Source: an uncultured Gammaproteobacteria bacterium
GTDB lineage: Bacteria > Patescibacteriota > Microgenomatia > UBA12405
Direction: 5' to 3'
Length of the DNA: 64,000 bases
Assembly: GCA_964448705.1 (NCBI GenBank)
Contig: CAYUZS010000001.1
Coordinates: forward strand, 45,601 to 109,600
The notes beneath the pieces are model-generated. The model had not been told where the DNA came from. It was given only the letters and a program-made list of their open reading frames with translations, and did no database searches. Positions 29,292-53,094 of the stretch are shown here, piece after piece. Position 1 is the first letter of the stretch. The number at the start of each line of letters is the position of its first letter. The position numbers were made by a program, and so were the translations under genes.

Positions 29292-32200
29292 TTAGTTTTC
29301 CTCCTCCACTGGAGTATTTGTAACTGCGGAAGCGTCAATTTCAGTTTTTTCTTCATCGACAACTTCTTTGACACCTGTAGGACTGATGTCGATAGCTAAA
29401 CCGGCAAGTTCTTTGGTAAGAACTTTGAATGATTCAGGGATTGCCGGTTCGGGAATGGGCTGACCTTTGATAATAGCTTGGAAAGCGTGTGTCCGCCCTT
29501 CAATATCATCGGATTTAATAGTCAACATTTCCTGAAGAGTATGGGCAGCGCGATGTGCTTCCAAAGCCCAGACTTCCATTTCTCCAAGTCTTTGTCCACC
29601 CATACGGGCTTTTCCACCCAAAGGTTGTTGAGTGACCAAGGAATAAGGTCCGGTAGAACGGGCATGAACTTTGTCGTCAACCATGTGAACCAGTTTGACG
29701 ATATAACCAATACCGACAACAGCTTTCTGATCGTAGGCGTCACCGGTTCGGCCATCATAAAGTTGGGTTTTTCCGCTAATATCCAAACCAGCTTGTTTTA
29801 ATTCATCAGCAATTTGGGATTCGGAATATTTCTCGAAAACAGGAACGGCATATTTTTTGCCAAGTTTCCAACCGGCGTAGCCTAGGGTAACTTCCAAAAT
29901 CTGTCCCAAATTCATACGGGCGATAACTGACAAAGGCGACATGACCATATCCACCGGAGTACCATCAGCCAAACGAGGCATATCATATTCCGGCATAATA
30001 CGGCAGATAACACCTTTGTTTCCATGACGTCCGGCAATTTTGTCTCCTTCCTGAATACGGCGGATTTGGGCAACATAAACTTTGACAACTTTATTGACTC
30101 CGGGATCAAGTTCATCACCTTTTTCTTTATCCAAAATATCGACTTTGATGACAACTCCACCTTCACCATTGGCAACTCTTAAGGAAGTGTCTTTAACTTC
30201 ACGAGCTTTTTCACCGAAAATAGCACGTAAAAGACGTTCCTCAGCCGTCAACTCTTTTTCACCGCGGGGTTCTACTTTACCAACAAGAATATCGTTGGGT
30301 CCAACAGTGGCACCAATCATCACAATACCGTCCTCAGTTAATTTAGCCAATTCGGCTTCGGAAACATTGGGGATATCTTTGGTTAATTCTTCACTGCCTA
30401 ATTTAGTTTCGACAACCTGAGCAACATTTTCATAAATTTGAATGTTGGTTAAAACATCTTCTTTAATCAAACGATCGGAAACTAAGAATGAATCTTCGTA
30501 GGAAAGACCGTCAATAGAAGCATAAGCGACTAAAAGATTACGGCCAATTGACAATTCACCATTATCAGTGGAAGGACCGTCAATAAGTACATCTCCTTTT
30601 TTAACTGTATCACCCAAGTTAACTAATACTTTTTGGTTGTAACAGGTACCGTAAGGTGAAGTGCGTTCAAATTTGGAGGTGTAATAGGTTTCAGTTTTAC
30701 CATCAGAAGAAATTTCGCTGTGCTTACCAACCTCTTCTTTAACGAGTTTGGAATCTAAGGTAACAACGACTTTTTCACCGTCAATATAGGTTACTTTTCC
30801 CGGATGATTGGCCACAATTGACCTGTTCATCGAGGTGGCGATTACTCCTTCCATCCCGGTACCGATGATAGGAGATTCAGGACTGACCAGAGGGACAGCC
30901 TGAGTCTGCATGTGAGAACCCATAAGGGCACGGGTAGCATCATCATGATCAACAAAAGGAATCAAAGAAGCAGAGGCACCAACAATTTCGTTGGGAACTA
31001 AGTCAATATAAGAAACACCTTCGACAGGACCTTCGATAAATTCGCCCTGATAACGAATTGGCAACCATTCTTGTTTAATGTTGTTATTTTCGTCAATTTT
31101 TACACCAAGATGGGTTATATTTGCATTATACTCATCATCGGCATCCAAATAGACAACATCATCATCTATATGGTATTGACTGCCTTTCTTAATAACCTTT
31201 CGGAAAGGAGCTTTAACAAAACCATATTTATCGACATCGGCATAGAGAGCCAAGTAGGTAACTAAACCAATGTTCGGACCTTCAGGAGAACGGACAGTAC
31301 AAATACGGCCATACTGACTGGAATGAACGTCACGAATAGAGAAAGCAGCTCTTTCCCGAGTTAAACCACCGACACCGACAACGGTAACACGGCGGAGAAG
31401 GTCAATTTCCGAAAGAGGATTGGTTTGATCCAAAATAGCGGAAAGTTGGTTGCTTCTAAAGAAAGTATTGAGTGAAGAAATAAGAGGTTGAGGATTGATC
31501 ATCTGGCTCGGGAGCGGTTTTTCTTTGGTGGAAATAAGCGACATTCTTTCTTTAACCATTCTTTCGAAACGGGCTAAAGCAGGACGGATGGCGACTTGGG
31601 AGACGATTTCGCCACAACGTCGGAGACGGCGGTTGGCCAAAGAATCGATGTCATCCAGACGGGTAACTTCTCTTTTTTGAAGTTGGATTAGGTATTTAAT
31701 AGTGGCAATTAAATCTTCTTTACGAATTACCCAATTTTCCTGATCATCATCGTCAAATTTGAAACCAAATTTTTTATTGACTTTGTAGCGGCCGACATTT
31801 CCCAATTCATAGGTCCTTAAATCAAAAAATCTTTCGGTAAAAAATTTCTGGGCATTTTCCAAAACCACCGGCTCTCCCGGTCGAAGTTTTCGATAGAATT
31901 CCAAAACAGCCTCTTCAGAAGTTTTGGTAGGATCAGCTTGAATAGTAGCATTTATAAAATCTGAAAACTCGCCAACTAATTGTTTGTCTCCCATCTGGCA
32001 GGCAGCACGAAGAAGAATAGTAGCGGGAAATTTCTTTTTGCGGTCGATTCTGGCAAAAATAACATCTTTTTTACCAATGAAAAACTCCAGCCAAGAACCT
32101 CGGACAGGACGAATTTCAGCATTAAAAAGTGTTTTACCGGTTGAAGGATCGGATTCTCCGGTGAAATAAACACCAGGAGAACGAACGAGTTGATTAATGA

Positions 32201-32579
32201 TTCCCCTTTCAATACCGTTGACAATATAAGTACCCTCTTCGGTCATGGTGGGAAGATTAAGGAAGAAAACATTTTCTTCTCTAACATCGCCGGTACGTTT
32301 GTTGGTTAATTTAGCTTTTATTTTGACAGGAATGGTGTAATTAAGACCTTTTCTTTTAGCAATTTCGGGAGATAAAGAGATCGGATCGAAGGCTAGTTCA
32401 CCTAATTGAAGTTCCCAGTTGTTTCCGGTGTAGTCTGAAATCGGAGAGATGGTCTGAATGGTTTTAGAAAGTTCTTGGTTTAAAAATTCTTTCCAGGATT
32501 CTTTTTGGATTCTTAACAAATCTAACTTAGGAAGATTGGGATATTTTTTACCCCAGTTGGTTCTTTTTGCGGATGGCAT
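29292..32579 (-). CDS. rpoB: DNA-directed RNA polymerase beta subunit
   Basis: The protein is 1095 aa with conserved beta motifs (e.g. GGQRLGEMEVWALEAH). Confidence 0.97.
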   Translation of the reverse strand: MPSAKRTNWGKKYPNLPKLDLLRIQKESWKEFLNQELSKTIQTISPISDYTGNNWELQLGELAFDPISLSPEIAKRKGLNYTIPVKIKAKLTNKRTGDVREENVFFLNLPTMTEEGTYIVNGIERGIINQLVRSPGVYFTGESDPSTGKTLFNAEIRPVRGSWLEFFIGKKDVIFARIDRKKKFPATILLRAACQMGDKQLVGEFSDFINATIQADPTKTSEEAVLEFYRKLRPGEPVVLENAQKFFTERFFDLRTYELGNVGRYKVNKKFGFKFDDDDQENWVIRKEDLIATIKYLIQLQKREVTRLDDIDSLANRRLRRCGEIVSQVAIRPALARFERMVKERMSLISTKEKPLPSQMINPQPLISSLNTFFRSNQLSAILDQTNPLSEIDLLRRVTVVGVGGLTRERAAFSIRDVHSSQYGRICTVRSPEGPNIGLVTYLALYADVDKYGFVKAPFRKVIKKGSQYHIDDDVVYLDADDEYNANITHLGVKIDENNNIKQEWLPIRYQGEFIEGPVEGVSYIDLVPNEIVGASASLIPFVDHDDATRALMGSHMQTQAVPLVSPESPIIGTGMEGVIATSMNRSIVANHPGKVTYIDGEKVVVTLDSKLVKEEVGKHSEISSDGKTETYYTSKFERTSPYGTCYNQKVLVNLGDTVKKGDVLIDGPSTDNGELSIGRNLLVAYASIDGLSYEDSFLVSDRLIKEDVLTNIQIYENVAQVVETKLGSEELTKDIPNVSEAELAKLTEDGIVMIGATVGPNDILVGKVEPRGEKELTAEERLLRAIFGEKAREVKDTSLRVANGEGGVVIKVDILDKEKGDELDPGVNKVVKVYVAQIRRIQEGDKIAGRHGNKGVICRIMPEYDMPRLADGTPVDMVMSPLSVIARMNLGQILEVTLGYAGWKLGKKYAVPVFEKYSESQIADELKQAGLDISGKTQLYDGRTGDAYDQKAVVGIGYIVKLVHMVDDKVHARSTGPYSLVTQQPLGGKARMGGQRLGEMEVWALEAHRAAHTLQEMLTIKSDDIEGRTHAFQAIIKGQPIPEPAIPESFKVLTKELAGLAIDISPTGVKEVVDEEKTEIDASAVTNTPVEEEN

Positions 32580-32599
32580 CGATGATAGGTATAACTACT

Positions 32600-32626
32600 A
32601 AAAGAAAGACCCCCGTGGTGACGGGA
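32600..32626 (-). terminator. Hairpin plus U-run between the upstream secreted-protein gene and rpoB: candidate terminator or attenuator in the rpoB leader
   Basis: The minus strand reads tCCCGTcaccACGGGg followed by GTCTTTCTTTT. It lies about 75 nt downstream of the 32702 gene stop and about 20 nt upstream of the rpoB ATG. Confidence 0.4.
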
Positions 32627-32664
32627 AAAGCGAGTTATGTTCCAACCGCTCGCCGAATGCGGAG

Positions 32665-32693
32665 ATTATATACTTAATTTATGCGTAGAGCAA
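32665..32693 (-). promoter_or_regulatory. Candidate promoter for rpoB-rpoC (TTGCTC-N17-TATAAT)
   Basis: The minus strand reads TTGCTCtacgcataaattaagtaTATAAT, beginning 9 nt after the upstream gene's stop. It was identified by consensus only. Confidence 0.3.
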
Positions 32694-32701
32694 GAGGGAG
32701 A

Positions 32702-33286
32702 TTATTGAGTAAATTTGAAGGTGGAGAGAATTTGCTTAAATTCAGCTAGTTGTTTTCCATCACAGCCAGTGTCGCTATTACATGTCATCTCGAAACATGC
32801 TCCTTTATTAAAAAATATAGCTGATTTGTAATTTGGCCCTTCGTAACCGTTAATGGCATAAACTGTGTAATTTGGGGCACTATACATAATTTGTCCGTCG
32901 CCGACAATGTCTGAAGGTTCACAGACGATATTTAGGCCAAAATTGTAAAAAGATCCGGTATATTTATCCCCAAAATCATTTGATACCAGTTTATAATCAG
33001 AACCTTTGAGAACGACAAAAAGATCGCGTGAAATATCCTTATTGTCGGCAAAATAGGTAGATGGATAGTTGAAGGTGAAACCTTCCTGAGTGTCCGCATA
33101 GGTATTCCAAACAAGGAGAGGATCAACAGAGGGAACTACCGTCTCAACAGGAATTACTACCGGAGCAGAATTTGAGGTCGATGGCCGTTGGCTAAAAAAA
33201 TAAAGATAGATCAAAGAGACGTTAAAAATAAATAGAACGGCGATGATAAACAAATAAAATACTTGAGAAAATCCAGATTTTTTCAT
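32702..33286 (-). CDS. Type-II membrane / secreted protein, paralog family member 1. It has an N-terminal signal anchor and a conserved C-terminal domain ending QILSTFKFTQ.
   Basis: The N-terminal TM helix is FYLFIIAVLFIFNVSLIYLYFF. The motif WNTY....GFTFNYPS and the C-terminal KQILSTFKFTQ are shared with ORFs 33290-34444 and 50785-51270. Confidence 0.6.
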   Translation of the reverse strand: MKKSGFSQVFYLFIIAVLFIFNVSLIYLYFFSQRPSTSNSAPVVIPVETVVPSVDPLLVWNTYADTQEGFTFNYPSTYFADNKDISRDLFVVLKGSDYKLVSNDFGDKYTGSFYNFGLNIVCEPSDIVGDGQIMYSAPNYTVYAINGYEGPNYKSAIFFNKGACFEMTCNSDTGCDGKQLAEFKQILSTFKFTQ

Positions 33287-33289
33287 AAT

Positions 33290-34444
33290 TTAGAGAATTT
33301 TGAAGGTGGAAAGAATTTGCTGAAGTTTTTCTTCTTCAGAGGTAGGATACGTGATTGAATACAAGATTGAATTTTTTTCGTTTTGTAAACCTATATATTT
33401 ATTTGGCAACTGAAATAGAGACCAGGATATGCCATTAATGTTTTTCTTTCCAGTTGAAACCGTGTCGTTCATATATTTTGGTTGATTAATAGGATAATTG
33501 GATGAAGCACTTATATCAAAAGCAGCGTTTGATGTTTTGTTAAAAATTAACTGAACATAATTAGCGGTATCAACATTGTTTATTTCCATACTTAGGTCCG
33601 ATGGATATTGAACGGAAAATTTATATTCATCACTGGTATATGTTTTCAAATCTTTTAGACTGGCGGAGGAAGAAGAAGTGGATTCACAGGCTTTTTCGGT
33701 ACAAGAAATAGTTAAGTCGGGAGTGCAGGTGCAGGTATTACAGCCATCAGCGGCAGCAAAAGCCTCATTGACCTGATATGTTTGGTCGTTTAGCTGACAG
33801 ACATTTCCCGGAGCAGCTGTTGGTGAGGTATCGGAAACTTTAGGAACAGAAGTTGAAGGATTAGAAGTGCCGCCTGGATTACTAAGAAAAACAGTATAGA
33901 CAATGGCACCGCAAACAGTGAGGAAAATAAATAAAGCGACAAAAAATAAATATTTAAAAATATTACTTTGGCGAGGAACCTCCTGTTGAGAATCAAAAAC
34001 AGGGGCGGGAGGAAGATTACTGTTTTCCGGTTGAGGAGTTGGAGGGAGATCATCATTTTCCGGTTGTGGAGTTAACGGAAGATCGTTGGTTTTCGGTTGA
34101 GGAATGGGAGGGAGTTCGTAGCTTTCTGCCTGAGGAACGGAAGAAAGAGGCTCTTCAGAAACCGGTTCCGGTGGATTTGGAACTTCGGTTAAAGCAATAT
34201 CGTCAGGAACAGAGGTCATTAAAGTATCTTCGGTTTCAGCGGCAGGAATAACAGCCGGATCTTCAGGAGCATCGATAGGTTTTGGGGATGAATTGTCAAC
34301 AGATTCAGGAGGCACCTGTGGAGTTTTAGAGGCTAGTTCTTGTGAATAATGATCTAATATATCCTGATATTGTTTGGCTAAATCTACATCCTGAGAAGGC
34401 TGAGTAGAATTTTGATCTTTAACATCCATATATAAATATCGCAT
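33290..34444 (-). CDS. Type-II membrane protein, paralog family member 2. It has an acidic/Pro-rich cytoplasmic N-terminal region with LPxTPQPEN repeats, a TM helix, a Cys-rich module and a conserved C-terminal domain ending QILSTFKIL.
   Basis: The TM helix is IFKYLFFVALFIFLTVCGAIVYTVFL. The Cys cluster is CQLND....CNTCTCTPDLTISCTEKAC. The C-terminus KTYTSDEYKFSVQYPS...LQQILSTFKIL aligns with the other two paralogs. An alternative start at MDVKDQ (34429) is possible. Confidence 0.6.
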   Translation of the reverse strand: MRYLYMDVKDQNSTQPSQDVDLAKQYQDILDHYSQELASKTPQVPPESVDNSSPKPIDAPEDPAVIPAAETEDTLMTSVPDDIALTEVPNPPEPVSEEPLSSVPQAESYELPPIPQPKTNDLPLTPQPENDDLPPTPQPENSNLPPAPVFDSQQEVPRQSNIFKYLFFVALFIFLTVCGAIVYTVFLSNPGGTSNPSTSVPKVSDTSPTAAPGNVCQLNDQTYQVNEAFAAADGCNTCTCTPDLTISCTEKACESTSSSSASLKDLKTYTSDEYKFSVQYPSDLSMEINNVDTANYVQLIFNKTSNAAFDISASSNYPINQPKYMNDTVSTGKKNINGISWSLFQLPNKYIGLQNEKNSILYSITYPTSEEEKLQQILSTFKIL

Positions 34445-34470
34445 TTAGAGAATATGGAGTCAATGGTAAA

Positions 34471-50143: not shown

Positions 50144-50785
50144 TTAAAATAATTTTAAGTTTTTTGCTTCCGAATTTGAATTTTGTTTTACTAACGGCTC
50201 GGAGGCAGGAATACCGTTTTGTAAATAGTCACCGATTCTTAGAAAATCCATTTCAAGAGCGGTTAACATGGCGCCATTTCGCAAACCAGCTGACGGGTGG
50301 TAAACCGGAATAATTGTTAAATCTAAATTACGCCAATTAAGCTGTCTGATTTGCCCGTGAACACGGGAAATAGATTCTTCCGGAAAAAAATAGTTCATAG
50401 CGAACCGACCTAAGGTAATAACTACCTTGGGTTGAATAATTTCCAATTGAGCTTTTAAGTAAGGAGTGCATACTATTATTTCTTCAGGGAGAGGATCGCG
50501 GTTTTCGGGTGGACGGTGTTTTAAAATGTTGGCGATATAAACGTCTTGCCGATCGACTTGAATCGTATTCAGAAGCTTGTTTAACAGTTTACCAGAGTTA
50601 CCGACAAAGGGCAAGCCCTGTTCATCTTCCTGAGCTCCCGGAGCTTCGCCGATAAAAACAATCTGAGCGTCGGGATTGCCGTCGCCGGGAACGGGATTAT
50701 GTGCAGTTTTATAGAGCGGACATTTTTGACATCCGGCAACCAAACCAGAGATGTATTTTAACTTTTGTTCCTTAGTTGCGGACAT
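50144..50785 (-). CDS. udg: Uracil-DNA glycosylase family 4 (Fe-S cluster type)
   Basis: It has GEAPGAQEDEQGLPFVGNSGKLL and the N-terminal CQKCPL Fe-S ligands. Confidence 0.88.
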   Translation of the reverse strand: MSATKEQKLKYISGLVAGCQKCPLYKTAHNPVPGDGNPDAQIVFIGEAPGAQEDEQGLPFVGNSGKLLNKLLNTIQVDRQDVYIANILKHRPPENRDPLPEEIIVCTPYLKAQLEIIQPKVVITLGRFAMNYFFPEESISRVHGQIRQLNWRNLDLTIIPVYHPSAGLRNGAMLTALEMDFLRIGDYLQNGIPASEPLVKQNSNSEAKNLKLF

Positions 50786-51270
50786 TATTGAGTAAATTTA
50801 AATGAGGAGAGAATTTGATCAGAAATTTTGGTATCTAAAAGTTCATCCACATTAAAACTGAATTTAAAATGATTTTTATCAGTATAGTATTTATAAATTT
50901 TTTCTGAACTTTGAATCTGATAAAAACGGTTGGAACCAAAATTCTCTTCTTTAAGAAGAGTGCAAGTTTCTTTTGGACAGGAAAATTTGTTTAGATAATC
51001 GACCGTAAAGACATCTGTACCATTTTTATCTGAAAGATAAATAGAAAAAGAAGAATCACTCTGGGTTTGCGACCAAAGAGTAAGATTGGAGGGATATTGA
51101 AATTCAAAACCGTATTCTTCATTGCGGTAGGTCTGCCAGGCGGAGGTGTTGTGCGAACCAGAGGGAGGGTTAATAATATTTTTTGTACTTAAGGGAGAAA
51201 AAATAATAATGAAACAGGAGAAAAAGATAACTGCCAGTGATAAGGGCCAAAGAAAAATTTTATTTTTCAT
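50785..51270 (-). CDS. Type-II membrane / secreted protein, paralog family member 3 (conserved C-terminal domain ending QILSSFKFTQ)
   Basis: It has an N-terminal TM helix. WQTYRNEEYGFEFQYPS and the C-terminal DQILSSFKFTQ align with the 32702 and 33290 proteins. Confidence 0.6.
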   Translation of the reverse strand: MKNKIFLWPLSLAVIFFSCFIIIFSPLSTKNIINPPSGSHNTSAWQTYRNEEYGFEFQYPSNLTLWSQTQSDSSFSIYLSDKNGTDVFTVDYLNKFSCPKETCTLLKEENFGSNRFYQIQSSEKIYKYYTDKNHFKFSFNVDELLDTKISDQILSSFKFTQ

Positions 51271-51273
51271 AGT

Positions 51274-51558
51274 TTAGAGGGCGGCACCCTGAAAGTCCGG
51301 ACAATTGTTTTTGGCCCAGTCAAGATATCCGGGTTGACACTGAGCTTTGGTGGGACCGGGACCGGGCATACAATCAACCCATTCACTTTTTGGGCAAGTG
51401 TATTTAAAAATATTAACGGTCGGAACCGGGATAGGCCGGGTGACGGCCGGAGGAGATACTTGGTAATACGGATAGAGAGTTAATAACAAAACCACAAAAG
51501 CAGTGGCTAACATAATCAAAGGAAGAATTAGATTTGAAAAAGTTTTTTCGGATTTCAT
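51274..51558 (-). CDS. Small membrane-anchored Cys-containing (4 Cys) secreted protein, 94 aa
   Basis: It has an N-terminal TM helix (ILPLIMLATAFVVLLLTL) and four Cys in the ectodomain. Confidence 0.45.
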   Translation of the reverse strand: MKSEKTFSNLILPLIMLATAFVVLLLTLYPYYQVSPPAVTRPIPVPTVNIFKYTCPKSEWVDCMPGPGPTKAQCQPGYLDWAKNNCPDFQGAAL

Positions 51559-52028
51559 AGGGCAACTAATTTTCCATTACTATTGATACATTCCGAAACC
51601 ATGGATTTGGGAAAATCATAAGGGCTAATGGTTTTACAGGGAATACTTTCGTTACCATCAAAAACAACCAGCCAATTATTGGTGTCTTTGACTGCCAAAA
51701 ATAAACCGCCTTTCATGGCTAATTTAAAAGTGACTGTGCCCTTTAGATAAGGGGTTTCTTTTTGATCGATATCAATTTGAATATCAGAAATGTTTTTGTT
51801 ATATTTTTCGGCAAAAAATTTCTTTAAAGACTCCGGATCGAGATTATCGCTGACCACAGTCGGTGCAACGGTAATAGAAGGATAGATCGATACATTAGGG
51901 TTAATAGTAGGTGTAACCACCGCCGGCTGGTTAGCACTAAGTAGAGGGAGTTTGTTTTGAAAATGAAAGTAATATCCCCAGACGCCAATAAACAAAAAAA
52001 CTATTAACCAAATGGGGAAATTTTTCAT
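51555..52028 (-). CDS. Membrane-anchored hypothetical protein, ~157 aa
   Basis: The start was taken at MKNFPIWLIVFLF (52028), which avoids overlap with the Lon-like gene. It has one TM helix and a beta-rich ectodomain. Confidence 0.45.
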   Translation of the reverse strand: MKNFPIWLIVFLFIGVWGYYFHFQNKLPLLSANQPAVVTPTINPNVSIYPSITVAPTVVSDNLDPESLKKFFAEKYNKNISDIQIDIDQKETPYLKGTVTFKLAMKGGLFLAVKDTNNWLVVFDGNESIPCKTISPYDFPKSMVSECINSNGKLVAL

Positions 52029-52032
52029 AAAA

Positions 52033-53094
52033 TTACCACTGAGGAATAAAATTTTTAACATTGGTATCGTCGATCACCACCTGTTTTTGTCTTTCCGAAA
52101 GAATAATCATGGCTACCTTACGGCACAGACCTTCAATATTTCTTTTTAAGGTACGGACACCGGCATCAAAGCCGAGAGGACGAACAATATTTGTCCACAC
52201 TTCCGGTTTAATTACTAAGTCCTGAGGAGTTAAACCCGATTCTTTTAGGGCTTGCGGCAATAAATAATCACGACCGATAGTTATTTTTTCCTCATCGTTA
52301 TAAGACGGCATTTGAATTACTTCCAAACGATCCATAACAGCAGTCGCGATTCGGGAAGTGTTGTTACAAGTGGCACAGAAAAAAACCTGAGAAAGATCGA
52401 AGGGATAGTCTATATAGTGGTCAGTGAAACGATTGTTTTGTTCCGGATCAAGCAGCTCAACCAAAACACCCATAATAGTGTTCAGTGCATCATCGGCAAC
52501 CCGGTCGATTTCGTCAAGAAGAATAACCGGATTTCTAGTTTTGCACTGAGCCAGACCGCGAATAATAGCACCGGGTTCGGATTCCGGATGCTGACGGGAT
52601 TGGCCGCGAAGATAAAGAGGATCACCTAAACCACCAAAAGGAATACGAATAATTTCCCGTCCAAGAACGGTGGCAATGGATTTGGCCATTGTTGTTTTAC
52701 CGGTGCCGACCAGTCCGACAAAAAGCATCACCGGAGCCCGAAGTTTTTGATCGGGCTGACGATTTTTTTGAAGGGTGAGGACGGAAATATATTCCAAAAT
52801 TCTTTCTTTGACACTATCCAAACCATAGTGTCCCTCGTTTAGTTTTTCGTGGGCAAACTGAAGATCGAGAATGTCCTGTGATTCTTTTTCCCAAGGTAAG
52901 GAAATAATCCAATCTATATATTTAGAAATTGACTGATAATTAGCCCAAAAAGTTTCCTCTGAACGGGCATTAATCTGAAGTTGGGAGAACATGTCTGCCA
53001 ACTTTTCTTTAAGTCCGTCAGGAAGGACAATATTTTTGCTTTTTTCAACCAGTTTATTAATCGCCTCTTCTGTCGAGAGCTGCGGAGTATCCAT
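52033..53094 (-). CDS. Lon-type AAA+ ATPase module, lacking both the N-terminal LAN domain and the C-terminal S16 peptidase domain
   Basis: HYGLDSVKERILEYISV..., Walker A GLVGTGKTT, Walker B ILLDEIDR and LLDPEQNNRFTDHY..PFDLSQVFF are Lon-specific motifs. The ORF ends where the Lon protease domain would begin, and a different gene starts 4 nt later. Confidence 0.75.
   Translation of the reverse strand: MDTPQLSTEEAINKLVEKSKNIVLPDGLKEKLADMFSQLQINARSEETFWANYQSISKYIDWIISLPWEKESQDILDLQFAHEKLNEGHYGLDSVKERILEYISVLTLQKNRQPDQKLRAPVMLFVGLVGTGKTTMAKSIATVLGREIIRIPFGGLGDPLYLRGQSRQHPESEPGAIIRGLAQCKTRNPVILLDEIDRVADDALNTIMGVLVELLDPEQNNRFTDHYIDYPFDLSQVFFCATCNNTSRIATAVMDRLEVIQMPSYNDEEKITIGRDYLLPQALKESGLTPQDLVIKPEVWTNIVRPLGFDAGVRTLKRNIEGLCRKVAMIILSERQKQVVIDDTNVKNFIPQW

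What the first reader, a model, noticed from the sequence alone, without database searches (positions are those of the whole stretch)
32702..34444. Three-member family of type-II membrane/secreted proteins with a conserved ~110 aa C-terminal domain ending QILS[ST]FKF(TQ)
ORFs 32702-33286 (194 aa), 33290-34444 (384 aa) and 50785-51270 (161 aa) all have an N-terminal signal anchor followed by an alignable domain. The domain begins [WK]xTYxxxE[YG][FK]xFx[YF]PS and ends in the near-identical C-terminal peptides KQILSTFKFTQ, QQILSTFKIL and DQILSSFKFTQ. Two members sit in tandem directly upstream of rpoB, and the third sits next to a Lon-AAA/membrane-protein cluster. The middle member also carries a ~150 aa acidic, Pro-rich cytoplasmic region (LPxTPQPEN repeats) and a Cys-rich module (CNTCTCTPDLTISCTEKAC). 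I do not recognise this domain as a named family. The strictly conserved C-terminal peptide could be a sorting or processing signal, or a binding epitope.
Basis: seen in the sequence. Interest (0 to 1): 0.6.

Follow-up and report, generated by a model that had tools for sequence, protein, structure and literature searches.

The report
Membrane-anchored PsbP-like domain proteins in CPR
The three small membrane proteins really do share a domain, but it is a divergent copy of an already catalogued fold (PsbP-like, Pfam PF18933) that is hugely expanded in CPR bacteria, and the conserved "QILSTFKF" tail is the last helix of that fold, not a sorting signal.

Summary
Observation confirmed. Three minus-strand ORFs (32702-33286, 33290-34444, 50785-51270) each have one hydrophobic anchor followed by a shared ~120-135 aa domain. 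An HMM built from 263 domains of other genomes finds exactly these three among 599 window ORFs (E 3e-12, 8e-12, 6e-18; next best 0.45).

The QILSTFKF peptide is the terminal helix plus short strand of this fold, and the Pfam model ends on it. It recurs internally at the end of every repeat in tandem-domain relatives (204 internal vs 130 terminal), so it is not a C-terminal sorting signal.

The family is very large (22,936 clusters at 50% identity), found almost only in CPR/Patescibacteria, and often arranged in tandem gene arrays. Its ends are conserved and its middle is hypervariable. The likely role is a membrane-tethered, cell-surface binding module; the ligand is unknown. Verdict: new member of a known kind, modest interest.

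The parts
32702..33286 (-). M1: 194-aa single-pass membrane protein with one PsbP-like domain, 122 nt upstream of rpoB
   Evidence: ORF. Independent HMM E 2.8e-12. Pfam PsbP 0.007 and PsbP_2 0.02, both sub-threshold. Orthologue P0200 is 60% identical.
33194..33262 (-). M1 hydrophobic anchor (about aa 9-31)
   Evidence: Best KD-19 window scores 2.53 at aa 9-27.
32705..33112 (-). M1 PsbP-like domain (aa 59-194), from WNTYADTQEGFTFNYPS to KQILSTFKFTQ
   Evidence: HMM alignment covers model positions 3-103 of 103.
33290..34444 (-). M2: 384-aa multi-module membrane protein. Order: cytoplasmic helix, Pro/acidic linker, TM helix, Cys module, PsbP-like domain.
   Evidence: ORF. HMM E 8.2e-12. Orthologues P0187-P0191 share the architecture.
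33965..34444 (-). M2 cytoplasmic N-terminal region (aa 1-160). It holds the conserved QYQDILDHYSQELA helix (aa 20-39) and a Pro/acidic low-complexity stretch.
   Evidence: 19.4% Pro and 18.8% Asp+Glu. Helix 20-39 has pLDDT about 75. Y26, L30 and Y33 are invariant in A4.
34023..34114 (-). 33-nt x 2.8 tandem repeat encoding DLP(P/L)TPQPEN units
   Evidence: Tandem Repeats Finder, score 100, 71% matches.
33884..33961 (-). M2 transmembrane helix (aa 162-187)
   Evidence: AF2 helix 162-187 with pLDDT 87-92. Best KD-19 window scores 2.56.
33686..33799 (-). M2 six-Cys module (aa 216-253), pacifastin/VWC-like: C...CNTCTC...CTEKAC
   Evidence: Pfam Pacifastin_I 1.8e-5 (24.8 bits against a 27.9-bit cutoff) and VWC 1.4e-4. 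Relative P0197 passes the Pacifastin_I cutoff at 34.2 bits. All six Cys are invariant in A4. pLDDT 75-90.
33293..33658 (-). M2 PsbP-like domain (aa 263-384), from LKTYTSDEYKFSVQYPS to QQILSTFKIL
   Evidence: HMM E 8.2e-12. Pfam PsbP_2 0.0024. The model has low confidence here but shows the same order of elements.
50785..51270 (-). M3: 161-aa single-pass membrane protein with one PsbP-like domain
51199..51258 (-). M3 hydrophobic anchor (about aa 5-24)
   Evidence: Best KD-19 window scores 2.61 at aa 5-23. AF2 helix 8-24.
50788..51141 (-). M3 PsbP-like domain (aa 44-161)
   Evidence: HMM covers model positions 1-103 of 103. Strands 45-140 and helix 147-155. 113 residues superpose on 2xb3 at 2.5 A.
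50788..50820 (-). DQILSSFKFTQ: the terminal helix (aa 147-155) and short strand (158-159) of the fold. The equivalent peptides are at 32705-32737 in M1 and 33293-33322 in M2.
   Evidence: DSSP on the model. I153, S155, F157 and F159 are at least 90% conserved.
51274..51558 (-). Neighbouring 94-aa anchored protein with a four-Cys module. It is not a family member, but the module is fused after a PsbP-like domain in relative P0002.
   Evidence: BLASTP 9e-20, 56% identity to P0002 residues 202-249.
51555..52061 (-). Neighbouring 168-aa anchored protein. Its C-terminal GG..W..two-Cys module is fused after the PsbP-like domain in M1's orthologue P0200.
   Evidence: BLASTP 1e-5 to P0200 residues 240-282. 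The same module in P0192 matches P0200 at 5e-18.

Best explanation
M1, M2 and M3 are single-pass, N-terminally anchored proteins. Each displays one PsbP-like domain (Mog1/PsbP fold, a divergent branch of Pfam PsbP_2, PF18933) on the outer face of the cytoplasmic membrane of a CPR (Microgenomates-like) bacterium.

The two conserved motifs are the N-terminal beta-hairpin (WxTYxNEEYGFEFxYP) and the C-terminal amphipathic helix plus short strand (DQILSTFKF). Together they close the fold. The hypervariable, length-variable middle supplies the rest of the sheet and its loops. The QILSTFKF peptide is therefore a structural element that marks the end of every domain, not a targeting signal.

The family works as a diversifiable extracytoplasmic binding module. 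It is duplicated in tandem gene arrays, repeated within proteins, and combined with other small extracellular modules: pacifastin/VWC-like Cys knots and other Cys-containing modules.

Shown: paralogy, family and fold assignment, internal recurrence of the peptide, distribution, tandem arrays and module shuffling. Inferred: N-in/C-out topology, the binding function, and exposure of the variable middle as the specificity surface. The ligand is unknown.
For: Paralogy: the independent HMM gives 6e-18, 3e-12 and 8e-12, with the next ORF at 0.45.

Family:
- PsbP_2 is the top or only recurrent Pfam hit for all three proteins and for 16 of 25 homologues, with a best E of 1.6e-8.
- Long relatives score 75.9 and 62.4 bits against a 27-bit cutoff. 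P0101 residues 205-347 map to profile positions 42-184 of 184, and its ILSTFKF lies at 341-347.
- The only two PDB sequence hits of the family profile are both CyanoP.

Fold:
- The M3 model has pLDDT 79.
- The Foldseek top 8 are PsbP, CyanoP, PnsL and Apa, all at probability 1.00.

The peptide is structural:
- It forms helix 147-155 and strand 158-159 of the model.
- It occurs 204 times internally and 130 times terminally.
- It is internal in P0200.

Conserved ends, variable middle: 1.36 and 1.22 bits per position at the ends, against 0.25 in the middle.

Extracytoplasmic location:
- There is a single hydrophobic anchor.
- Fusion partners are disulfide-rich or otherwise extracellular-type modules: pacifastin/VWC, Fib_succ_major and a fervidolysin prodomain-like domain.
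- A CPR-enriched MdbA-like thiol-disulfide oxidoreductase has been reported (PMC6744442).

Expansion:
- 22,936 clusters at 50% identity have E <= 1e-3.
- 35 of 79 loci carry at least 2 family genes within 6 kb.
- The syntenic Shapirobacteria locus L041 has three family genes by the HMM, plus an M2-like TM/Cys region, between the miaB-like gene and rpoB, where the window has two.
Against: - M1, M2 and M3 each score below Pfam's own PsbP_2 cutoff (15.3, 18.4 and 21.1 bits against 27).
- Only M3 has a confident model. The PsbP-like part of M2's model has pLDDT 30-56, and M1 was not modelled.
- No tool here predicts signal peptidase cleavage, so a cleaved signal peptide in M1 or M3 is not excluded. 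That would make them secreted rather than anchored.
- Conservation at the ends includes polar and charged residues (RNEE, DQ, ST, K) that a purely structural role does not obviously require.
- My domain set for the per-position conservation figure was picked with regexes for both motifs, which inflates the end values.
- There is no experimental or neighbourhood evidence for any ligand.
Confidence: 0.78

Rival explanations
1. The conserved C-terminal peptide is a sorting or processing signal, for example recognised by a sortase-like or exosortase-like enzyme or a protease.
For: The peptide is strongly conserved and sits at the extreme C-terminus in all three window proteins. It is also terminal in most single-domain homologues.
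Against: - The same peptide is internal 204 times against 130 terminal among fetched relatives. It always ends a repeat and is followed by a 6-10 aa linker and then the next domain.
- It is internal in M1's orthologue P0200.
- It is a helix packed in the modelled fold.
- The Pfam PsbP_2 profile ends on it.
- No hydrophobic segment or basic tail follows it, unlike LPXTG or PEP-CTERM signals (seen directly in the sequence).
- Cleavage between repeats in polyproteins is not formally excluded.
Confidence: 0.04
2. The two conserved ends form a shared docking or oligomerisation surface, not just scaffold. They might bind a common envelope partner, or the terminal strand of one domain might pair with the hairpin of the next. 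That would give head-to-tail arrays of tandem repeats and of separately anchored paralogues.
For: - Near-identical 16-mers and 9-mers, including polar residues, persist across CPR phyla while the rest of the domain is about 22% identical.
- Tandem repeats are joined by short, conserved linkers of the form FKFI(D/E)xx(D/E)TSxW.
- Paralogues are often adjacent genes.
Against: No complex was modelled or observed. In the PsbP fold these elements are core secondary structure, which by itself predicts above-average conservation.
Confidence: 0.15
3. The conserved ends serve as short homology arms for recombination or gene conversion among paralogues, so that variable middles are exchanged as cassettes to diversify surface proteins.
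For: - Within-locus paralogue pairs share synonymous codons at the ends more often than expected (observed/expected 1.40 for the N-motif and 1.75 for the C-motif) but not in the middle (1.03). Between-genome pairs give 1.14, 1.30 and 1.11.
- The excess lies in non-preferred codons: 4.0x for the C-motif and 2.8x for the N-motif.
- The longest exact nucleotide runs at the ends have medians of 13 vs 8 nt and 18 vs 11 nt (within vs between genomes), with maxima of 36-44 nt.
- M1 and M3 share 30 of 33 nt at the tail.
Against: - The tracts are short (44 nt at most).
- Genome-specific selection for particular codons at strongly conserved residues predicts the same pattern.
- The pairs are few (28-47), they are not independent, and the z values are naive.
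- No chimeric paralogues were demonstrated.
Confidence: 0.1
4. The resemblance is a low-complexity or compositional coincidence, and there is no shared domain.
For: Pairwise BLASTP aligns only 18-29 residues, with E values of 1e-2 to 7e-5.
Against: The independent profile gives E values of 1e-12 to 1e-18 over the full domain for exactly these three ORFs out of 599. The family has thousands of members.
Confidence: 0.01

Closest known systems
Pfam PF18933 PsbP_2 (PsbP-like protein), Mog1/PsbP superfamily
   Same: It is the top recurrent Pfam match for all three proteins and for 16 of 25 homologues. Multi-domain relatives pass the cutoff by a wide margin. The profile ends on the ILSTFKF peptide.
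   Different: The three window proteins individually fall below the 27-bit gathering score. Most CPR single-domain homologues carry no precomputed Pfam hit. No function is known for this family.
Cyanobacterial PsbP (CyanoP; PDB 2xb3, 2lnj) and plant PsbP / PnsL (PF01789)
   Different: Sequence identity is 10-17%. PsbP proteins are lumenal subunits or assembly factors of photosystem II or NDH in oxygenic phototrophs. CPR bacteria are non-photosynthetic (established knowledge), so the functional context cannot be the same. The PsbP C-terminus lacks the QILSTFKF signature.
Extracytoplasmic Mog1/PsbP-fold proteins of monoderm and diderm bacteria: M. tuberculosis MTC28, Apa and LpqN; DcrB; T6SS immunity proteins Tsi3 and TplEi
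   Different: No detectable sequence similarity. These proteins lack the conserved terminal motifs and do not form tandem-repeat architectures. None is from CPR.
Pacifastin (LCMII) / VWC small disulfide-rich domains (for the Cys module of M2 only)
   Same: It has the six-Cys pattern C...C-N-x-C-x-C...C-T-x3-C. Pacifastin_I scores 24.8 bits in M2 and 34.2 bits in relative P0197. One orthologue is annotated 'Kielin/chordin-like'.
   Different: M2 is below the cutoff. The first inter-Cys spacing (18 residues in M2) is longer than I recall for arthropod pacifastins (recollection, not checked here). No protease-inhibitor activity is known in bacteria.

Membership tests
Pfam PsbP_2 (PF18933) | Whole-protein score at or above the curated gathering cutoff (27 bits) | tested here: not met
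   M1 15.3, M2 18.4 and M3 21.1 bits.
Pfam PsbP_2 (PF18933) | Homology to bona fide members, shown by a profile link to proteins that pass the cutoff | tested here: met
   The profile containing M1-M3 retrieves P0062, P0101, P0047 and P0100 at E <= 1e-31. These score 49.5-75.9 bits on PF18933. An HMM of such domains returns M1-M3 at 1e-12 to 1e-18.
Pfam PsbP_2 (PF18933) | Mog1/PsbP-type fold: N-terminal hairpin, antiparallel sheet and C-terminal helix | tested here: met
PsbP proper (PF01789, photosystem II extrinsic subunit) | Score at or above 23.5 bits, and occurrence in an oxygenic phototroph with PSII or NDH | tested here: not met
   M1 scores 16.9 bits; M2 and M3 give no hit. The genomic context and relatives are CPR/Patescibacteria. 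That CPR bacteria lack photosystems is established knowledge and was not tested here.
C-terminal cell-surface sorting signals (LPXTG/sortase, PEP-CTERM/exosortase and similar) | Motif located only at the C-terminus, followed by a hydrophobic segment and a basic tail | tested here: not met
   The motif is internal 204 times and terminal 130 times. Only 0-3 residues follow it in M1-M3, with no hydrophobic tail.
Pacifastin_I (PF05375), for the M2 Cys module | Six-Cys pattern and a score at or above 27.9 bits | tested here: inconclusive
   The Cys pattern is present and invariant in orthologues. M2 scores 24.8 bits, while relative P0197 scores 34.2 bits. VWC also matches at a similar level.
Type II (N-in) signal-anchor membrane protein | A single uncleaved N-terminal or internal TM helix, with the C-terminal domain outside | tested here: inconclusive
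   There is one hydrophobic stretch of at least 19 residues with KD above 2.5, and helices in the models. The disulfide-rich downstream modules suggest an outside location. No signal-peptidase or topology predictor was available, and the charge bias across the anchor is weak.

The most novel reading that the evidence does not exclude
The near-invariant domain ends are used at the DNA level as short recombination arms, as well as being scaffold. Under this reading, CPR bacteria swap the hypervariable middles of PsbP-like surface domains between tandem paralogues and repeats. That would be a cassette-type surface-diversification system in organisms that depend on attachment to hosts. The supporting pattern is that within-genome synonymous-codon concordance and exact nucleotide tracts are confined to the two ends.
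Probability: 0.1. Interest if true: 0.7.

Novelty: new member of a known kind. Interest (0 to 1): 0.3.

Why it matters
This gives a name and a fold to a very large set of proteins that public records leave as 'hypothetical'. The family has at least 22,936 clusters at 50% identity, almost all from CPR/Patescibacteria. It corrects a tempting misreading, because a conserved C-terminal peptide looks like a sorting signal. It also flags the family as a plausible part of the variable, modular cell surface of CPR bacteria, whose host-attachment proteins are largely unknown. It is not a new kind of system. The fold and the Pfam family exist already, and no function can yet be assigned.

Tried and rejected
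- Pairwise BLASTP between the three proteins was too weak to decide, so I replaced it with an independent HMM.
- NCBIfam gave no match for any of the proteins.
- The PDB sequence search with the family profile gave only two non-significant hits, E 0.48 and 1.2, though both are CyanoP.
- The afdb50 fold library was unavailable.
- The M2 structure prediction had low confidence in the PsbP-like region, so I ran no fold search on it.
- Exact-sequence cluster look-ups returned no names and no organism.
- Literature searches for PsbP with CPR or Patescibacteria, for PF18933 and for the motif strings found nothing relevant. Meheust et al. 2019 does not mention PsbP in the text or the held supplements.
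- Linkage to rpoBC: only 3 of 79 loci have rpoB or rpoC nearby. My rough estimate is that this is about the chance level for a multi-copy family, so I do not claim functional linkage. The position is conserved only in the close relative L041.
- A terminator-like hairpin lies between M1 and rpoB, but the number of such sites in the region is not above the shuffled expectation.
- Lipoprotein reading of M3: the Cys at position 19 is not in a canonical lipobox and is not conserved in homologues, so I rejected it.
- Preferred-codon explanation of the codon concordance: motif codons use each locus's most frequent codon slightly less often than expected. This weakens the explanation, but selection for rarer 'optimal' C-ending codons is still possible.
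Full report
**1. The observation**

The three ORFs are present exactly as listed, and all are on the minus strand: M1 32702-33286 (194 aa), M2 33290-34444 (384 aa) and M3 50785-51270 (161 aa). rpoB is 29292-32579 on the same strand, so the order is M2, a 3-nt gap, M1, a 122-nt gap, then rpoB. M3 lies in a run of minus-strand genes whose relatives carry these Pfam assignments: PNPase, an AAA/Lon_lid protein, two small anchored proteins, M3, a UDG-family protein and RNase J.

Pairwise BLASTP aligns only the N-terminal motif (E 3e-4 and 7e-5) or the tail (0.076). That is suggestive but not decisive. For a formal test I built an HMM from 263 domains taken only from other genomes and searched all 599 six-frame ORFs of the window. 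M3, M1 and M2 scored 6.3e-18, 2.8e-12 and 8.2e-12, and the alignments shown (M3, M1) cover essentially the whole model. The next ORF scored 0.45. The family is real, and the window holds exactly three members.

**2. What the domain is**

Pfam gives sub-threshold PsbP_2 (PF18933) hits for all three proteins (E 0.02, 0.0024 and 0.00035), plus PsbP (PF01789) for M1.
- Of 25 homologues, 16 hit PsbP_2, with a best E of 1.6e-8.
- Long multi-domain relatives retrieved with the family profile pass the 27-bit cutoff by far. P0062 scores 75.9 bits and P0101 scores 62.4 bits.
- A profile search of PDB sequences returned only two chains, both cyanobacterial PsbP.

An AlphaFold model of M3 (pLDDT 79.2) shows a TM helix (8-24), a beta-hairpin (45-50 and 55-60), seven further strands, a helix at 147-155 and a two-residue strand at 158-159.
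- The Foldseek top eight are PsbP, CyanoP, PnsL and Apa, all at probability 1.00.

The domain is therefore a divergent member of the Mog1/PsbP fold and of the PsbP_2 sequence family. M2's model is confident only for a cytoplasmic helix (20-39), the TM helix (162-187) and the Cys module (215-250). Its PsbP-like part has low confidence, although its secondary-structure elements come in the same order. M2 and M1 therefore rest on the HMM evidence.

**3. The C-terminal peptide**

In the M3 model, DQILSSF is the terminal amphipathic helix and KF is a short final strand. In P0101 the Pfam alignment maps residues 205-347 to profile positions 42-184 of 184, and its ILSTFKF occupies residues 341-347. 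The curated model therefore ends on this peptide.

The profile search of 1.84 billion representatives found 22,936 proteins at E <= 1e-3 and 5,315 at E <= 1e-10. The top hits carry 2-6 tandem copies of the domain. In those proteins the peptide ends every repeat and is followed by a short linker and the next WxTYxNEEYGFEFKYP. Among the 178 fetched proteins it is internal 204 times and terminal 130 times. M1's only close orthologue, P0200, also continues past QILSTFKF into another module. A strictly C-terminal sorting signal is thus excluded. The peptide is a domain-end structural element.

**4. Family anatomy and distribution**

The two ends carry 1.36 and 1.22 bits per position, against 0.25 for the middle. 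Domain selection by motif regex inflates the ends, but the unselected hits show the same pattern. Domain length ranges from 115 to 195 aa.

The 79 loci kept are almost all from CPR/Patescibacteria lineages. A few MAGs are labelled Gammaproteobacteria, Bdellovibrionales, Lentisphaerae or Pacearchaeota. I did not verify those labels, and they may reflect mis-binning.

Thirty-five of the 79 loci have 2-5 family genes within 6 kb. Locus L041 is from a Candidatus Shapirobacteria genome (rpoB 79%, rpoC 77% and the miaB-like gene 72% identical). It has the same layout of miaB-like gene, family array, rpoB and rpoC. There the HMM finds three family genes, preceded by an M2-like TM/Cys region, where the window has two. 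The window therefore most likely comes from a Microgenomates-type CPR genome, and this slot gains and loses paralogues. L006 shares M3's neighbourhood. Across the 79 loci there is no general linkage to rpoBC (3 of 79).

**5. Modularity**

M2 belongs to a conserved Microgenomates subfamily with this order of parts:
- a cytoplasmic (D/Q)YQxILxxY helix;
- a Pro/acidic linker, which in M2 includes a 33-nt x 2.8 repeat;
- a TM helix;
- a six-Cys module;
- the PsbP-like domain.

The Cys module has the pacifastin/VWC cysteine pattern. It scores 24.8 bits in M2, just under the Pacifastin_I cutoff, and 34.2 bits in relative P0197. In P0186 the Cys module follows the PsbP-like domain.

The two small anchored ORFs upstream of M3 carry modules that are fused to PsbP-like domains elsewhere. 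ORF 51274-51558 matches the C-terminus of P0002 (9e-20), and ORF 51555-52061 matches the C-terminus of P0200 (1e-5). Other fusion partners are Fib_succ_major and a fervidolysin prodomain-like domain. All of this fits a mix-and-match repertoire of extracytoplasmic modules on single-pass anchors. Meheust et al. 2019 reported that most CPR-enriched families are membrane or extracellular proteins of unknown function. They also reported that an MdbA-like disulfide oxidoreductase is CPR-enriched (PMC6744442). They do not mention this family.

**6. Mechanism**

Shown: the three proteins are anchored PsbP-like domain proteins of a large CPR-centred family.

Inferred:
- the domain faces outward;
- the conserved hairpin and terminal helix form the invariant scaffold;
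- the variable middle forms the specificity surface;
- the role is binding of a protein, lipid or envelope component. This is by analogy with other extracytoplasmic Mog1/PsbP-fold proteins such as MTC28, Apa, LpqN, DcrB and Tsi3.

No ligand can be named.

**7. A side observation**

Paralogous copies within one locus share synonymous codons at the two conserved ends more often than local codon usage predicts (observed/expected 1.40 and 1.75). They do not in the middle (1.03). Between-genome pairs give 1.14, 1.30 and 1.11. The excess lies in non-preferred codons, and the ends share longer exact nucleotide runs within genomes than between genomes. Either short-tract gene conversion or genome-specific codon selection at conserved residues would explain this. 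I could not separate the two.

**8. Verdict**

This is a new, sub-threshold member of a known kind. The interest is modest and comes from the size and CPR restriction of the family and its unusual conservation pattern.

Noticed in passing
window 50788-50820, 32705-32737, 33293-33322; loci L003-L081: Paralogous domain copies in the same locus share synonymous codons at the two conserved terminal motifs more often than expected (observed/expected 1.40 for N and 1.75 for C), but not in the variable middle (1.03). The excess is in non-preferred codons, and exact nucleotide runs reach 36-44 nt. This could be short-tract gene conversion or site-specific codon selection.
   Followed up: partly
window 51199-51270 (M3 N-terminus); proteins P0002-P0009, P0011, P0015, P0019, P0026: The N-terminal anchor MKNKIFL(F/W)P(L/I)SLAVIFFAS(F/I)IIIFSP is nearly identical in proteins with unrelated ectodomains: PsbP-like domains in some, and Gmad2 Ig-like domains (PF10648) in others. 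A shared anchor cassette sits on different surface domains.
   Followed up: no
window 51274-51558 and 51555-52061 (minus strand): Two small anchored ORFs next to M3 carry Cys-containing modules with no Pfam or NCBIfam match. In relatives these modules are fused behind PsbP-like or pacifastin-like domains (P0002 at 9e-20, P0200 at 1e-5; P0192 vs P0200 at 5e-18).
   Followed up: partly
window 34327-34386 (M2 aa 20-39): A short cytoplasmic motif, (D/Q)YQxILxxY, is conserved in all M2-like proteins (Y26, L30 and Y33 are invariant) and is modelled as a helix with pLDDT about 75. The function is unknown. It could be a cytoplasmic docking peptide for a protein that spans the membrane.
   Followed up: no
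window 33686-33799 (M2 aa 216-253): This is a bacterial pacifastin/VWC-like six-Cys module. Pacifastin domains are known as arthropod serine-protease inhibitors. One CPR relative passes the Pfam cutoff, and one is annotated 'Kielin/chordin-like'.
   Followed up: partly
window 32580-34470; L041 1060-10017: The interval between a divergently transcribed miaB-like radical-SAM gene and rpoB is a conserved slot holding a variable number of PsbP-like genes. There are two in the window. In a Shapirobacteria relative the HMM finds three, plus an M2-like TM/Cys region. I did not check where rplJ and rplL, the usual upstream neighbours of rpoB, lie.
   Followed up: partly
window 32610-32627 (minus strand): A terminator-like hairpin with a T-run lies in the 122-nt gap between M1 and rpoB. 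This suggests that M2-M1 may be transcribed separately from rpoBC. The number of such sites in the region is not above the shuffled expectation.
   Followed up: no
loci L003, L011, L023, L032, L035, L047, L068: A few family members lie on MAG contigs labelled Gammaproteobacteria, Bdellovibrionales, Pacearchaeota, Lentisphaerae or Roseivirgaceae. These could be mis-binned CPR contigs or real occurrences outside CPR.
   Followed up: no
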